Shown here piece after piece: positions 6,401-9,562 of a DNA stretch of 64,000 nucleotides. Each line of letters begins with the position of its first letter. Position 1 is the first letter of the stretch. This stretch comes from Phycisphaerae bacterium (lineage in GTDB: Bacteria > Planctomycetota > Phycisphaerae > Phycisphaerales > UBA5793). The position numbers were made by a program, and so were the translations under genes. The notes beneath the pieces are model-generated. The model was not told where the DNA came from. It saw nothing but the letters and a program-made list of their open reading frames with translations, and searched no databases. The DNA lies in contig JBDIVQ010000002.1 of the NCBI GenBank assembly GCA_039794345.1, positions 6,558-70,557 on the forward strand, read 5' to 3'.

Positions 6401-8941
6401 CAGTACAAGGACGGCAACGTCAGTGCCTCGGACGATCCCGTCAACCGCGCCACCGACCGCCTGAGCCTGGCGCAGTCCTTCTTCGATGAACTGGGCCGGA
6501 CGTGGAAGACGACGCGGCACAAGATCAACCAGTCCACCGGCGCCGACGATGATTCGCTCGCATTCCTGACCTGGTATGACAAGGTCGGTCGGGTCATGAA
6601 GAGCCAGGGAGAGGAACTCGTCAAGACCTACCACGACCGCCTCGGCCGGGTGACGCATCGCTTCACCTTGGCCAGCACCGACGATTCGAGTTACGCCGAT
6701 GCCCAGACCGTCACCGGCGACATTGTGCTCGAAGAGAACCAGACCGTCTACGACCCCGACGGCGATGAGGTCCTGATGCAGGTGCTCATTCAGCGCAAGC
6801 ACGAGGATGCCGGCGCCGGGCAGACGACGGGTCCGCTGGACACCAATGCCGACAACGATCCGATGAAGATCACCGCTTCGGACCTCAAGGGTCGCGCCCA
6901 GATCACGGCGCTGTGGTACGACGACCTCCACCGCCTCACCGACACCGTGGCCTACGGCACCAACGGCGGCAGCACCTTTGACCGCACGAATCTCAGCATC
7001 CCCGCGCGCTCGGACACCGCCCTGCGCACCACCACCACCTACGACCTCATGGGCCGTGCCGAGACGATCGAAGACCCGATGGGCCGCGTGAGCAAGTTCG
7101 AGTACGACGACGCCAACCGCCGGACCAGGACAATCCGCAACTACGATCCGAACACCAACGGCGGGCAGCCCTCGGGTACGGACATCAACCAGACTGTCGA
7201 GTATGCCTACACCAACGGCCTCCAGACCTCGATCACCCAGCGCATGACGGGAACCGGCAACGACGAGACCACCAACTACACCTACGGCACCACAAAAGGG
7301 ACCAGCGCCGGAGATTCGAAGATCGCCACCGGCCACCTGCTCCAGAAGGTGCAGTATCCCGACTCGCTCACCGCGGCCGATGTCGTGACCTTCGCGTACA
7401 ATGCCCAAGGCGAGACGATCTGGACCAAGGACCAGAAGGGTCGGGTCATGGAGTACGACTTCGACGATTCCGGTCGAAGAACTCACGAACGCGTCACCAC
7501 CTCCGGCGGCTTCGACACCGCGATCCTGCGCCTCTCGACGACCTATGACAACCACGGGCGCGTGAATCTCGTCTCCTCCTACGACAACGCGACCGTCGGC
7601 AGCGGCACGGTCAAGAACCAGGTGCAGTACGCATTCGACGACTGGGGCAACCTCGCCTCATTCACCCAAAACCGCAGCGGAGCGATCTCGACGGGCACGA
7701 GCAGCGACGAGTACGCCATTGCCTACGCCTGGGAGAAGAAGGAACCCAGCAGCGCCCGGCGCACGTTGCGCCGCACGCAGATGACGCTGCCCAACAGCGG
7801 CGTCCTGTCCTATCTCTACGAATCCGCCGACGGCCTGCACGATGACAACGCCAGCCGGGTGACGCGCATCGCCGAGGGCTCGGGCGGCGGAGCGACCAAT
7901 CGAGTCCGCTACGCCTATCTCGGCGTCGGCTCGCTGGTGGGCACCGTCTACAACCAGCCCAGCCCGGTGGTCACATCGCTGCTGTTCAACAGCAGCGATG
8001 TCTACGATGCGATGGATCGATTCAACCGCATCATCGAGTCGCGCTGGAAACAGAGCACGACCGATCTCTACAAGGTCGCGCTTGGGTACGACCGCAACTC
8101 GAACCTGCTCACCGCCGACGATTCAGTGCAAACCGGCTTCGACTGGAAATACACCAACGACATGCTCGAACGCCTCACCCAGGCGCAGGCGGGCACGCTC
8201 AGCGGCGGGAGCATCACCAGCGAGACTCGCAAGCAGATCTTCGACCTCGACCAGGTCGGCAACTGGACTCACACCGACCTCGTCACCGGCGGCAGCACCA
8301 CGGAGTTCGACTGGGACTTCACCCACAACAAGGTCAACGAGATCACGGGCTGGGACAACCAGACCAACAATGTGACGCCGGTCTATGACGCGCCGGGCAA
8401 CATGACCGATGACAAGCGCGATTGGAAATACGAGTACGATGCGTGGTATCGGCTCGTCAGGATCAAGGACCAGTCGAACAATGTCAAGGCCGAGTTCGTC
8501 TACAACGCACTGGGATTCCGCCTCAGCACCCGCTACGACGAGACCGCCCCGTGGATGCACTTCGCTTATGACGAACGCTGGCGAATCGTGGCGATGTATG
8601 AAGATGATGCGGAGGCCTCCGAGCCGACGGAGCAGTTCTGGTATCACAATGCGGGCGCTTCGGGATTCGGCGGATCATCTTATATTGACGAAGTTGTCCT
8701 CCGCGACCGCGACACCGACGGCAACGGCACGCTGGATGAGCGCCGCTACTATCTCCAGAACCAGCACCACGATGTCGTCGCGCTCACCAACACCTCCGGC
8801 TCGATCAGCGAACGCGTGAACTACGACCCCTACGGCTCGCCGATCGGCACCTTCACATCCGTCGCCAACCGCAAGGGTTACGCGGGGTACGAGTACGATG
8901 CCGAACTGGGCGACGCGTACCACGTCCGCCACCGTGTCTAA
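3452..8941 (+). CDS. RHS / YD-repeat protein core (polymorphic-toxin shell), ended by an in-frame TAA inside the conserved core-end motif
   Basis: 1829 aa with dozens of YD-type repeats (YTYDRQGRL, FAHDAMGRLIRTKT, FDTLGRAV, YDNLGRLV, YDKVGRVM, YDLMGRAE, DPMGRVSKFEYDDANRRT and others). The end reads ...YDPYGSPIG...GYAGYEYDAELGDAYHVRHRV*. Start may be ATG 3452 or 3488. Confidence 0.9.
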   Translation: MLVLGPGGAEGTMSSQILEIYAASLTTYLPAAASLVQDVAPRAIQRGVNLDGTLREAPGIAVSLAGNPLEGEGAGNWNRNNRICGDVRLDTGTYSPFDIDIAMPAPGFSWMIGRTYNARQDVDGSHHDSNSYQGRNWFQTSQPEILLYDDPTDAANDVLYLIYGADRYIEFKRESTNSSQFKSKNGAAGAFERAAAGGAGDPETYIYTDQHGTRVYFFGFDANAGVAKGQIWKIIDADGNTAYVGHETNPSTAITNGFHTNGGIKLAFDTAGRRYTYVYTTLDSVDRLTQVKVEIDSGGWVEVNRVDYAYYTSADTTYGEAGNLQLVTITTPLTDSSKSMIRKKYYRYHKSGDTNGTSYQVKLVVGFEGTRNFDWTQDGQFDDEFLTASQSALLDYAEAYLEYSSRQISLATFNGQRACSGIATGEGTYEFTYSIDTNHQGTSGYDANWLYRTVVELPDTTYLTQYFDEVGQPLAQVRTKLDPSQTSGQLTWATEVVRDSLGGITDIHSPANVTAYTHSTGSFSLSSSAGLITTIARQSSGDLTGFLTDVKHKTGTSGSAFLDLTLTYTTTSKTIGDSTVVRPLVASRRVYEQEITTGTGNSHLTSFSHTFYTGDAVLMPKEVTTTLPSVSTDKNGSGTANTSKQFFLEDGTLQFEKNAEDRIDYSEYSGGQLVKRIIDADTTSGDFSGINIPTGFSSTGSPLHRKKTYTYDRQGRLDVMNAGAAGGLVKKSNHSMLASRLAVTLAYSNFDSAPDPDVFYGPVQYVVSNHAGRQVYQCVIELTDNESTTAINSQVDTTESDVIDAVANLGNCHILTKTIYNATGVRATAQWQYHLRPPIPVSGSTGEGSQGTNYDVTTFAHDAMGRLIRTKTPAGTITRNEFDTLGRAVSQEIGTNDNGDPGGDTSGTNNMVVVSETEYDGGNDGGNSYITSQTAYIRDNATGSRETTFAHDVRGRVLLQTNPTEPKFILNKYDNLGRLVASGQYKDGNVSASDDPVNRATDRLSLAQSFFDELGRTWKTTRHKINQSTGADDDSLAFLTWYDKVGRVMKSQGEELVKTYHDRLGRVTHRFTLASTDDSSYADAQTVTGDIVLEENQTVYDPDGDEVLMQVLIQRKHEDAGAGQTTGPLDTNADNDPMKITASDLKGRAQITALWYDDLHRLTDTVAYGTNGGSTFDRTNLSIPARSDTALRTTTTYDLMGRAETIEDPMGRVSKFEYDDANRRTRTIRNYDPNTNGGQPSGTDINQTVEYAYTNGLQTSITQRMTGTGNDETTNYTYGTTKGTSAGDSKIATGHLLQKVQYPDSLTAADVVTFAYNAQGETIWTKDQKGRVMEYDFDDSGRRTHERVTTSGGFDTAILRLSTTYDNHGRVNLVSSYDNATVGSGTVKNQVQYAFDDWGNLASFTQNRSGAISTGTSSDEYAIAYAWEKKEPSSARRTLRRTQMTLPNSGVLSYLYESADGLHDDNASRVTRIAEGSGGGATNRVRYAYLGVGSLVGTVYNQPSPVVTSLLFNSSDVYDAMDRFNRIIESRWKQSTTDLYKVALGYDRNSNLLTADDSVQTGFDWKYTNDMLERLTQAQAGTLSGGSITSETRKQIFDLDQVGNWTHTDLVTGGSTTEFDWDFTHNKVNEITGWDNQTNNVTPVYDAPGNMTDDKRDWKYEYDAWYRLVRIKDQSNNVKAEFVYNALGFRLSTRYDETAPWMHFAYDERWRIVAMYEDDAEASEPTEQFWYHNAGASGFGGSSYIDEVVLRDRDTDGNGTLDERRYYLQNQHHDVVALTNTSGSISERVNYDPYGSPIGTFTSVANRKGYAGYEYDAELGDAYHVRHRV

Positions 8942-9562
8942 CGCAGCGACCTGGGCGTCTGGACGCGACGCGATCCGCTCGGGTACGTGGATGGAATGGG
9001 GTTGTATGAATATGTGATGTCGAAACCGCTGAACACCTCGGATCCTTCTGGTACCGATTCCAGACAAGATCTACGCAGAGATTGTCTGACACTCTGCTTC
9101 GAGATTACTTTGGGAAACCTCGGCCCCGAAATGGATGCATGCATGGAGAGATGCATGAATGGCAAATTCTGCGAGATCCAGTGCTCGCTCGAAAGCGATC
9201 CCGGCTCAAAGGAATACAAGGACTGCCTCAAGAGATGTAAAGGCAAGGGGCTTCGTTTCAAATTCTACGGAAACCACTGCGGACCAGGCCATGGGGATCG
9301 CCAAAGGTCCGGCGGCGGCCCCCCAAAGGACGGAACGGATGCGTGCTGTGCCGAACACGACCGTTGCTATCAGCTCGGAGATTTCGGTGGATACAAGCCA
9401 TTCGACAAGTCATGCGGGCAGTCGATTTGTGACTCGGCCATGTGCGCTTGCCTGAAGAAGCGAATGAAAGAGGGCGGCCTAGACTTCAGCGAGCTCATCC
9501 ACAATTTGATCATGCAAATCGTGTTCTGCAACTTTAACGATAACTGTCACAGCCAGAGCTGA
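8942..9562 (+). CDS. detached RHS C-terminal toxin tip, phospholipase-A2-like, Cys-rich
   Basis: Same reading frame as the core: 8987-3452 is divisible by 3. It reads RSDLGVWTRRDPLGYVDGMGLYEYV (RHS DPxG boundary), then FYGNHCGPGHG...DACCAEHDRCY at 9266..9370. This matches the secreted-PLA2 Ca-loop (YGxxCGxG) and active site (CCxxHDxCY). The longest initiator-bearing ORF is 8987..9562 (GTG). GC is visibly lower than in the core. Confidence 0.6.
   Translation, partial: RSDLGVWTRRDPLGYVDGMGLYEYVMSKPLNTSDPSGTDSRQDLRRDCLTLCFEITLGNLGPEMDACMERCMNGKFCEIQCSLESDPGSKEYKDCLKRCKGKGLRFKFYGNHCGPGHGDRQRSGGGPPKDGTDACCAEHDRCYQLGDFGGYKPFDKSCGQSICDSAMCACLKKRMKEGGLDFSELIHNLIMQIVFCNFNDNCHSQS

What the first reader, a model, noticed from the sequence alone, without database searches (positions are those of the whole stretch)
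8930..8995. A single in-frame TAA splits the RHS core from its toxin tip exactly at the conserved Tyr of the core-end motif
The sequence reads YHVRHRV-TAA-RSDLGVWTRRDPLGYVDGMGLYEYV. Aligned to the usual RHS ending (R-Y-Y-D-P-x-L-G-R-W...DPxG), the stop occupies a Tyr position, so TAY has become TAA. The downstream frame is the same as the core frame. As written, the shell would be made without its cargo, and the tip would lack the upstream part of the autoproteolysis motif. Possible explanations are recent pseudogenisation, a sequencing or assembly error, programmed readthrough, or a displaced orphan-tip arrangement.
Basis: seen in the sequence. Interest (0 to 1): 0.6.

Follow-up and report, generated by a model that had tools for sequence, protein, structure and literature searches.

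The report
Nonsense-mutated RHS phospholipase toxin gene
A single base change (TAC to TAA) has cut short an otherwise intact bacterial RHS toxin gene just before its self-cleaving end and its phospholipase-like toxin, so this is an ordinary, recently disabled toxin gene and not a new mechanism.

Summary
TAA at 8939-8941 ends a 1829-codon RHS ORF (3452-8941). The same frame then stays open for 206 more codons, to 9562. These encode the rest of the conserved core end (DPLG, 19 residues, DPSG) and a secreted-PLA2-like toxin tip. A conserved immunity candidate follows at 9671-10786.

The codon is Tyr (TAC or TAT) in 15 of the 21 related core ends I read at DNA level, Leu in 2, Phe in 1 and unclassified in 3. 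An intact close homolog of the whole module (L032, protein P0209, 2022 aa, about 88% nucleotide identity) carries the same core, tip and immunity gene in one unbroken ORF, with TAC at exactly this codon.

Three separate per-run assemblies (SRR28812185, SRR28812186, SRR28812187) reproduce the TAA at 100% identity. An assembly error is therefore very unlikely.

Pairwise dN/dS against L032 is low on both sides of the stop: core 0.10, tip 0.12, immunity 0.19. The window's own branch shows no excess of amino-acid changes.

Best reading: a recent TAC>TAA nonsense mutation in a Phycisphaerales-type RHS-PLA2 toxin gene. It leaves a shell without its aspartyl-protease plug or cargo, and an immunity gene that is still intact. 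I found no support for programmed readthrough, an orphan-tip arrangement or a functional split. Interest is low.

The parts
3452..8941 (+). Truncated RHS/YD-repeat core ORF (1829 aa plus TAA)
   Evidence: ORF listed. It matches PF05593 RHS_repeat (26.1 bits, cut-off 22) and TIGR01643 YD_repeat_2x (37.1 bits, cut-off 15.8). It aligns without gaps, at 88-90% nucleotide identity, to intact paralogs or orthologs L001-L005, L011, L032 and L033. It belongs to a 90%-identity cluster whose six other members are 2022-2081 aa long.
8939..8941 (+). Premature in-frame TAA at a codon that is Tyr in most relatives
   Evidence: Relatives mostly have TAC or TAT here, and the intact homolog L032 has TAC. The TAA is identical in three per-run Logan assemblies, L020-L022.
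8942..9052 (+). Rest of the Rhs_assc_core / aspartyl-protease plug, now downstream of the stop: DPLG at 8972-8983 and PLNTSDPSG at 9026-9052
   Evidence: The TIGR03696 match spans the stop. The alignment to RhsA 7q97 and to TccC2/TccC3 core ends covers this stretch. The literature describes two DPxG motifs, with the catalytic Asp in the second (PMC8636562).
9053..9562 (+). Secreted-PLA2-like toxin tip (18 Cys in the post-stop product; YGNHCGPGHG at 9266-9295; CCAEHDRCY at 9344-9370; CDSAMCAC at 9428-9451), ending at TGA 9560-9562
   Evidence: All 43 PDB sequence hits with E<=1 are secreted PLA2s; the best is group V PLA2 at E=3.7e-4. The PF00068 match is weak (17.5 bits). Homologous tips sit on intact RHS proteins P0122, P0147 and P0158, and on P0124, whose core-end motif I did not confirm. 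The tip is 86% identical in amino acids to the tip of intact P0209/L032. GC3 is 0.66, against 0.86 in the core.
8996..9562 (+). 188-aa ORF that gene callers report as a separate gene (P0121); most likely a by-product of the nonsense mutation
   Evidence: P0121 matches the tip at 100% and starts at ATG 8996. In L032 the corresponding Met is internal to a 2022-aa protein.
9671..10786 (+). Candidate cognate immunity gene (371 aa from ATG 9671), intact
   Evidence: It is 72% identical over all 371 aa to the gene that directly follows the intact RHS-PLA2 gene in L032. dN/dS is 0.19. It has no Pfam or NCBIfam family. The immunity role is inferred from position only.

Best explanation
This is a recently inactivated RHS polymorphic-toxin gene. 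The ancestral gene encoded one protein of about 2036 aa: an N-terminal region of unknown secretion type, a YD-repeat shell, a C-terminal aspartyl-protease plug (RHRVY...DPLG, 19 residues, DPSG), and a secreted-PLA2-like toxin that would be enclosed in the shell and cleaved off. A cognate immunity gene followed it. A single C>A change turned the Tyr codon TAC into TAA, 10 codons before the first DPxG motif. Translation should now stop at residue 1829. The product would be a shell that lacks the last 37 residues of its plug, including both motif aspartates, and carries no cargo. The toxin tip is therefore no longer made as a deliverable fusion. The immunity gene downstream remains intact and could still protect against relatives that carry the intact toxin. 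What is shown: the stop, its position, the intact homolog with TAC, the reproducibility across three runs, and the selection signatures. What is inferred: loss of toxin delivery, the recency of the mutation, and the immunity role of the downstream gene.
For: 1. L032 (P0209, 2022 aa) carries the same core (about 88% nucleotide identity), the same tip (86% aa) and the same downstream gene (72% aa) as one uninterrupted ORF, with TAC at the window's TAA. 2. Six of the seven members of the 90%-identity cluster are 2022-2081 aa long. Only the window's protein is 1829 aa. 3. Among the 21 related core ends read at DNA level, and among the 120 aligned homologs, none carries a stop at this codon. Only 4 of the 120 end early at all, and none of them ends here. 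4. The window is 100% identical, TAA included, to contigs assembled separately from SRR28812185, SRR28812186 and SRR28812187. 5. There is no other lesion. The core aligns without gaps to L004, and the tip and immunity ORFs are intact. 6. dN/dS against L032 is 0.10 for the core, 0.16 for the junction, 0.12 for the tip and 0.19 for the immunity gene. The window's lineage-specific nonsynonymous/synonymous count is 44/71 = 0.62. That is similar to intact L005 (0.68) and L033 (0.54), although intact L003 (0.19) and L004 (0.35) are lower. Decay has therefore barely begun. 7. PLA2-like tips of this family occur on intact RHS proteins in other lineages: P0122, P0147 and P0158. 8. rhs pseudogenes are common (bioRxiv 10.1101/2025.05.08.652813).
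Against: No reads were available, so I could not measure allele frequency or look for a minority TAC allele. The three Logan runs may be the same libraries from which the source assembly was built. They exclude assembler error, but they are not independent biological samples. Low dN/dS after the stop is also what continued function of the tip would give. Pairwise dN/dS averages over both lineages and cannot date the mutation precisely. Upstream of 8317 the Logan contigs break, probably at a paralogous repeat, so the link between the full-length core and this core end rests on the source assembly. L032 does show the same arrangement.
Confidence: 0.85

Rival explanations
1. The TAA arose earlier in a silent orphan core-end/tip cassette, where an open frame is not needed. 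It was then imported into the main rhs gene by homologous recombination with a crossover upstream of 8939. The present state would still be a disabled gene, but the origin would be recombinational and not an in-situ mutation.
For: Tip swapping on one core is documented in this clade. L032 and L011 are 99.5% identical up to the junction (equivalent to window position ~9016) and then carry different tips. The stop lies 75 nt upstream of that breakpoint, inside the shared homology tract. A relative, L007, has a tandem orphan array with a degenerate core end. Logan contigs L020 and L021 both break at 8317, so 8317-9016 is specific to this copy. Tip and immunity GC3 (0.65-0.66) differs from core GC3 (0.86).
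Against: Sliding-window identity to six relatives shows no change of nearest neighbour and no jump in divergence around 8317-9016. The window holds no orphan module. dN/dS of the tip is as low as that of the core, which argues against a long silent period.
Confidence: 0.08
2. Leaky or programmed readthrough of the TAA, or reinitiation, still yields some full-length toxin, so the gene works at a reduced level.
For: The frame after the stop is perfectly preserved, and the tip keeps the PLA2 Ca-loop and His-Asp motifs. dN/dS after the stop is low. The base after the stop is C. From general knowledge, not tested here, that is a comparatively weak termination context in E. coli.
Against: The stop is not conserved: the intact homolog has TAC, and none of the other related core ends I read has a stop. 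The 121 nt around and after the stop fold no better than shuffles (z = +1.02, 173 of 200 shuffles fold as well). The window has no suppressor tRNA, only tRNA-Asn. TAA ends other long ORFs in the window, and no in-frame TAA occurs in the 1829-codon core. From general knowledge, programmed UAA readthrough is not an established bacterial mechanism.
Confidence: 0.04
3. Sequencing or assembly artefact: the real genome has TAC or TAT and the gene is intact.
For: The source is probably a metagenome-assembled genome. The core is a multi-copy repeat, which invites assembly problems (contig breaks at 8317 and 8818). C>A is a known oxidative-damage error type (general knowledge).
Against: Three per-run assemblies made by a different pipeline are 100% identical to the window over 2445-2955 bp, including the TAA. 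The site lies inside the uniquely assembled part of those contigs. No intact allele of this sequence appeared in the 5.8-billion-protein search or in the metagenome scan.
Confidence: 0.02
4. A functional two-gene split: the shell and a separately translated 188-aa tip (from ATG 8996) work together or independently.
For: Gene callers report the 188-aa ORF as a gene (P0121).
Against: This arrangement is seen only here. In L032 that Met is internal to the protein. The product would lack the first DPLG and any evident export signal. Published structures show that the toxin is enclosed as part of the same polypeptide and that the C-terminal plug closes the barrel (PMC8765631 and PMC8636562). No promoter-like site was found, although that scan covers sigma-70-type promoters only.
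Confidence: 0.01

Closest known systems
P0209 / locus L032 (Logan SRR30932924 contig, uncharacterised): intact RHS-PLA2-immunity module
   Same: Same core (about 88% nucleotide identity across window 3393-9699), same junction motif (RHRVYRSDLGVWTRRDPLG.VDGMGLYEYVMS.PL.TSDP.GTDSRQ), same PLA2-like tip (86% aa) and same downstream gene (72% aa).
   Different: L032 has TAC (Tyr) where the window has TAA, and it encodes one 2022-aa protein. Its core is 99.5% identical to that of L011 (MAG KLAP200), which carries a different tip.
Structurally characterised RHS/Tc cocoon toxins: P. protegens RhsA (7Q97), P. laumondii Rhs1, Photorhabdus TcdB2-TccC3, Yersinia YenC2
   Same: YD-repeat shell, and a C-terminal Rhs_assc_core plug carrying two DPxG motifs followed by a variable toxin. 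The window's core end aligns to RhsA (...[28 protein letters not shown]...DPLG) and to TccC3 (...YRYYQPWIGRWLSSDPAGTIDGLNLY...DPDG). Autoproteolysis and the plug are described in PMC8765631 and PMC8636562.
   Different: Sequence similarity is distant (E about 1e-5 to 1e-6). No PAAR, prePAAR or other known N-terminal secretion domain was detected. The clade motif is RHRVYRSDLGVW rather than RYYDPxxGRF. The boundary reads DPSGT rather than DPxGL. The ORF is interrupted by TAA.
PLA2 toxin domains of polymorphic toxins (Tox-PLA2, Zhang et al. 2012, PMC3482391) and animal secreted PLA2s (PF00068)
   Same: A phospholipase A2 domain used as the C-terminal toxin of a polymorphic toxin. The Tox-PLA2 table entry lists planctomycetes in its phyletic range. 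The window's tip has YGxxCGxG and CCxxHDxCY, as in group I/II/V/X secreted PLA2s.
   Different: Tox-PLA2 as defined in that paper is the prokaryotic PLA2 fold (PDB 1kp4) with a different motif pattern. The window's tip resembles animal-type secreted PLA2s and scores below the Pfam gathering threshold (17.5 against 32.1 bits). It also has an extra Cys-rich segment of about 70 aa at its N-terminus.
rhs pseudogenes and orphan rhs-CT/immunity modules
   Same: A disabled rhs toxin gene with a retained immunity gene. The same tip can occur on a full-length gene in one strain and on a pseudogene in another (bioRxiv 10.1101/2025.05.08.652813).
   Different: The pseudogenes described there are mostly N-terminally truncated or disrupted by insertion sequences. 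Here a single nonsense codon sits in an otherwise full-length gene, and no orphan module is present in the window.

Membership tests
RHS / YD-repeat polymorphic toxin | YD/RHS repeats that form the shell | tested here: met
   PF05593 at 26.1 bits (cut-off 22) and TIGR01643 at 37.1 bits (cut-off 15.8). Also 88-90% nucleotide identity to proteins that sources name RHS repeat proteins.
RHS / YD-repeat polymorphic toxin | RHS repeat-associated core domain (TIGR03696) at the end of the shell | tested here: met
   59.7 bits against a cut-off of 32.5, covering model positions 1-75 of 76. This holds only when the stop is read through (as Tyr). The stop lies at residue 173 of the 134-210 match.
RHS / YD-repeat polymorphic toxin | Two DPxG aspartyl-protease motifs and a PxxxxDPxGL boundary before the toxin | tested here: met
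   DPLG at 8972-8983 and PLNTSDPSG at 9026-9052, with 19 residues between the two 4-residue motifs. The residue after the second motif is T, not L. The motifs are defined in PMC8636562 and PMC8765631. Both lie downstream of the stop. Cleavage activity was not tested.
RHS / YD-repeat polymorphic toxin | Variable C-terminal toxin with distinct composition, followed by a cognate immunity gene | tested here: met
   Homology to paralogs ends at 8994-9051. GC3 is 0.66 (tip) and 0.65 (immunity) against 0.86 (core). The tip and the downstream gene are conserved together in L032. Immunity function itself was not tested.
RHS / YD-repeat polymorphic toxin | Shell, plug and toxin encoded as one uninterrupted polypeptide | tested here: not met
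   TAA at 8939-8941. The feature is met in the homolog L032. The window's gene is therefore a disrupted member.
RHS / YD-repeat polymorphic toxin | Recognisable N-terminal domain that specifies the secretion route (PAAR, prePAAR, TcdB/TcaC-type, signal peptide) | tested here: inconclusive
   No Pfam or NCBIfam match for the first 399 aa or for the upstream ORFs. The secretion route is unknown.
Secreted phospholipase A2 (PF00068-like) | Ca2+-binding loop YGxxCGxGG and catalytic CCxxHDxCY | tested here: met
   YGNHCGPGHG at 9266-9295 and CCAEHDRCY at 9344-9370, aligned to group V and group IIA PLA2 structures.
Secreted phospholipase A2 (PF00068-like) | Score above the curated family threshold | tested here: not met
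   PF00068 at 17.5 bits against 32.1. Homologs of the tip do pass PLA2 thresholds: P0127 on PF00068 (32.8 against 32.1), P0132 on PF08398 (26.2 against 23.9) and P0158 on PF05826 (33 against 22). All 43 PDB hits are secreted PLA2s. The tip is PLA2-like, but membership is not established by the curated cut-off.
Secreted phospholipase A2 (PF00068-like) | Phospholipase activity | not testable with these tools
   Needs an enzyme assay.
Programmed stop-codon readthrough / recoding site | The stop codon is conserved at the site in related genes | tested here: not met
   None of the other related core ends read at DNA level has a stop. L032, which has the same tip, has TAC.
Programmed stop-codon readthrough / recoding site | Stimulatory downstream RNA structure or a dedicated suppressor tRNA | tested here: not met
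   Fold z-score of +1.02 against shuffles. The only tRNA in the window is tRNA-Asn. The rest of the genome was not available.
Displaced orphan rhs-CT module | Only a core-end fragment upstream of the tip, located downstream of a primary rhs-CT/immunity pair | tested here: not met
   A full-length 1829-codon core is directly contiguous with the tip. The window has a single core-end motif. The same junction is intact in L032.

The most novel reading that the evidence does not exclude
The TAA allele is not a transient accident. It is a maintained 'disarmed but immune' state: the cell stops paying for, or risking, a disulfide-rich phospholipase toxin while keeping the immunity gene. Because the stop sits in the homology tract that the clade uses for tip exchange, recombination with a paralog could re-arm the gene. 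Alternatively, near-cognate readthrough could supply a trickle of toxin.
Probability: 0.06. Interest if true: 0.4.

Novelty: new member of a known kind. Interest (0 to 1): 0.12.

Why it matters
It matters little beyond annotation. The two called genes (1829 aa and 188 aa) should be annotated as one disrupted RHS-PLA2 toxin gene, and the 188-aa 'phospholipase' should not be counted as a free-standing enzyme. The locus does document an uncharacterised RHS family in Phycisphaerales/Planctomycetota with animal-type secreted-PLA2-like tips and clear tip swapping on near-identical cores. Together with L032, it offers a natural intact/disrupted pair for anyone studying the loss of toxin genes with retention of immunity.

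Tried and rejected
1. Compensating frameshifts. I considered that the stop might reflect two compensating frameshifts, because an alternative frame gives ...YTQRPGRW. I rejected this because close homologs read RHRVYRSDLGVW in the same frame as the window.

2. Second core end or orphan tip. A six-frame motif scan and a tblastn search of the window found none.

3. Exact product look-up. The look-up with the stop included found nothing. The cluster look-up without the stop did find the 1829-aa protein.

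4. Tip-only word-index search. It returned only the window's own 188-aa ORF. It missed P0209 because that protein is a non-representative member of a cluster whose representative has a different tip. P0209 was found through the cluster listing.

5. Metagenome scan with the tip. It gave only a junction-level match (L023) and no second copy of the tip.

6. Other Logan paralogs. I checked whether P0003, P0007 and P0008 came from the same runs as the window. They did not.

7. Immunity conservation next to the 51%-identical tip P0122. No similarity was found.

8. Island boundary at the tRNA. No tRNA-Asn-derived direct repeat marks an island boundary.

9. Promoter and terminator scan of 8600-11900. 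Nothing was found.

10. Recombination boundary near 8317. Sliding-window identity gave no signal.

11. Structure prediction. I did not run it, because sequence evidence was sufficient for the question asked.

Full report
**Observation**

The window reads ...GAC GCG TAC CAC GTC CGC CAC CGT GTC TAA CGC AGC GAC CTG GGC GTC TGG..., with TAA at 8939-8941. This stop ends a 1829-codon ORF that begins at ATG 3452. Translating straight through shows the same frame open for 206 more codons, to TGA at 9560-9562. From the local base composition, such an open stretch has a chance probability of about 1e-4.

**What the gene is**

- The 1829-aa product matches RHS_repeat (PF05593) and YD_repeat_2x (TIGR01643) above their cut-offs.
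- With the stop read as Tyr, the RHS repeat-associated core domain TIGR03696 matches residues 134-210 of a 379-aa read-through query, at 59.7 bits against a cut-off of 32.5. The stop is residue 173 of that query, in the middle of the domain.
- Sequence comparison with solved structures aligns the region to the core ends of P. protegens RhsA (7Q97), TccC2, TccC3 and YenC2. The stop corresponds to the second aromatic residue of 'RFYDP' in RhsA and 'RYYQP' in TccC3.
- Downstream of the stop lie DPLG (8972-8983) and PLNTSDPSG (9026-9052). These are the two DPxG motifs and the PxxxxDPxG boundary. Published work assigns them to the C-terminal aspartyl-protease plug, which closes the barrel and releases the toxin (PMC8765631 and PMC8636562).
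- The stop therefore does not separate core from tip. It truncates the core 37 codons before the core/tip boundary and removes both motif aspartates from the shell.

**The tip and the downstream gene**

- After DPSG comes a Cys-rich domain; the whole post-stop product holds 18 Cys. It carries YGNHCGPGHG, CCAEHDRCY and CDSAMCAC.
- All 43 PDB sequence hits with E<=1 are secreted phospholipases A2, aligned over the Ca2+ loop and the His-Asp site. The best is group V PLA2 at E=3.7e-4.
- Pfam PF00068 scores below its threshold. Homologs found by an exhaustive HMMER search do pass PLA2 family thresholds.
- Three of those homologs, P0122, P0147 and P0158, are RHS proteins that carry this tip type intact behind a normal core end. 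A fourth, P0124, carries the tip at its C-terminus, but I did not confirm its core-end motif.
- PLA2 toxin domains are already catalogued in polymorphic toxins (PMC3482391).
- Tip and downstream gene have GC3 of 0.66 and 0.65, against 0.86 in the core. This is the usual signature of a swapped cassette.
- The ORF at 9671-10786 has no family match. It is conserved next to the same tip elsewhere (see 'The decisive comparison'), so it is the candidate immunity gene.

**Is the position really a Tyr codon?**

Close homologs read RHRVYRSDLGVWTRRDPLGYVDG in the same frame as the window. This rejects my own initial idea of compensating frameshifts. Among 120 aligned homologs the column is Y in 62, L in 46, F in 4, H in 2 and K in 1, and no protein ends at this position. 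At DNA level I read 21 related core ends. The codon is TAC or TAT in 15, CTG (Leu) in 2 and TTC in 1. I did not classify the other 3 (L029-L031).

**The decisive comparison**

- The window's 1829-aa protein belongs to a 90%-identity cluster. Its six other members are 2022-2081 aa long.
- One of them, P0209 (locus L032, a 7.7-kb contig from SRR30932924), aligns to window 3393-9699 at 88.4% nucleotide identity. That alignment runs through the stop, the junction and the whole tip.
- P0209 is a single 2022-aa ORF with TAC where the window has TAA. Its post-stop region is 86% identical in amino acids to the window's.
- The next gene in L032 is 72% identical over 371 aa to window 9671-10786.
- The ancestral state of this module is therefore an intact fusion. 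The window differs by one C>A change.

**Is the TAA real?**

The 188-aa ORF that gene callers place after the stop (P0121) occurs on three contigs. These were assembled separately from SRR28812185, SRR28812186 and SRR28812187. All three are 100% identical to window 8317/8818 through about 11270, TAA included. This makes an assembler error very unlikely, and a random sequencing error even less likely. The runs may be the libraries behind the source assembly, so allele frequency still has to be read from the pile-ups. No intact allele of this exact sequence turned up in the protein collection or in the metagenome scan.

**How old is the lesion?**

- There is no other defect. The core aligns without gaps to L004, and the tip and immunity ORFs are intact.
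- NG86 dN/dS against L032 is 0.10 for the core (dS 0.42), 0.16 for the 37-codon junction, 0.12 for the tip (dS 0.58) and 0.19 for the immunity gene (dS 0.86).
- In a nine-sequence codon alignment, changes unique to the window are 44 nonsynonymous against 71 synonymous (0.62). Intact L005 gives 0.68 and intact L033 gives 0.54, while intact L003 (0.19) and L004 (0.35) are lower. All are far below my rough neutral expectation of about 2.5-3, which I did not compute here.
- The mutation is thus recent relative to the window's own branch. These numbers alone cannot exclude the formal alternative that the tip is still used.

**Alternatives**

- Programmed readthrough has no support. The stop is not conserved. 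The RNA around and after it folds no better than shuffles. The window has no suppressor tRNA. TAA is used as an ordinary stop in the window.
- An orphan-tip arrangement is not what is present. The core is full length and contiguous, and the window holds a single core end.
- Tip exchange is active in this clade. L032 and L011 share a 99.5%-identical core up to the position equivalent to window ~9016 and then carry different tips. L007 has a tandem orphan array.
- The stop lies 75 nt inside that shared tract, so it could have been imported with a cassette. Sliding-window identities show no boundary that would support this, and I give it about 0.08.
- A functional split with a free 188-aa tip is seen nowhere else. 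It also conflicts with the published finding that the toxin is enclosed as part of the same chain.

**Verdict**

This is a recently nonsense-mutated RHS toxin gene with a secreted-PLA2-like tip and an intact candidate immunity gene. By the names attached to its relatives, it comes from a Phycisphaerales/Planctomycetota genome. It is an ordinary pseudogenisation event in a gene family where pseudogenes are common. Its main value is for correct annotation. Interest is low.

Noticed in passing
window 11479-19923: A DUF2924 gene (11479-12006), a large serine recombinase (ORF 11814-13565; the Resolvase domain starts at about 12042), an unknown 782-aa ORF (13902-16250) and a Prim-Pol/AAA_25 protein (17659-19923) lie directly downstream of the RHS/tip/immunity module. 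Together they look like an integrated mobile element. The DUF2924 + recombinase pair also lies downstream of intact RHS paralogs in L005 (9743-11796) and L011 (15890-17499). I did not resolve whether the element targets RHS loci or carries them.
   Followed up: partly
window 2960-3034: A tRNA-Asn(GTT) gene lies about 420 bp upstream of the RHS start. No tRNA-derived direct repeat occurs elsewhere in the window, so there is no evidence of a tRNA-bounded island.
   Followed up: yes
window 42147-44889 and 43497-43755; L002/L004 2-2744; L011 4697-4955: DNA that lies 33 kb downstream of the RHS gene in the window is about 82% identical to DNA a few kb upstream of RHS paralogs in two related MAGs. 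A 259-bp piece of it abuts the RHS start in L011. This suggests rearrangements around RHS loci. The encoded ORFs have no Pfam family.
   Followed up: partly
L032 1-5762 vs L011 4833-10594: The two cores are 99.5% identical up to the 'GLYEYV' junction and then carry unrelated tips: PLA2-like in L032 and a different one in L011. This is a clean example of tip swapping on one core in this clade.
   Followed up: yes
L007 8675 and 10526: A related MAG (PDA_C_MAG.101) has two tandem core-end motifs. The first has Phe at the Tyr position, degenerate DPLAH and DSSG motifs, and internal deletions (P0001). This looks like a decaying orphan array.
   Followed up: no
window 8317 and 8818 (left ends of L020/L021 and of L022): The per-run Logan contigs stop at these points inside the core. 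This probably marks where this copy becomes identical to a paralogous RHS core in the same sample. If so, the source genome has at least one more RHS gene.
   Followed up: no
window 3452-4650 and upstream ORFs 323-2998: The RHS N-terminal 399 aa and the upstream ORFs match no known secretion-associated domain (no PAAR, VgrG or similar). The export route of this Phycisphaerales RHS family is unknown.
   Followed up: partly
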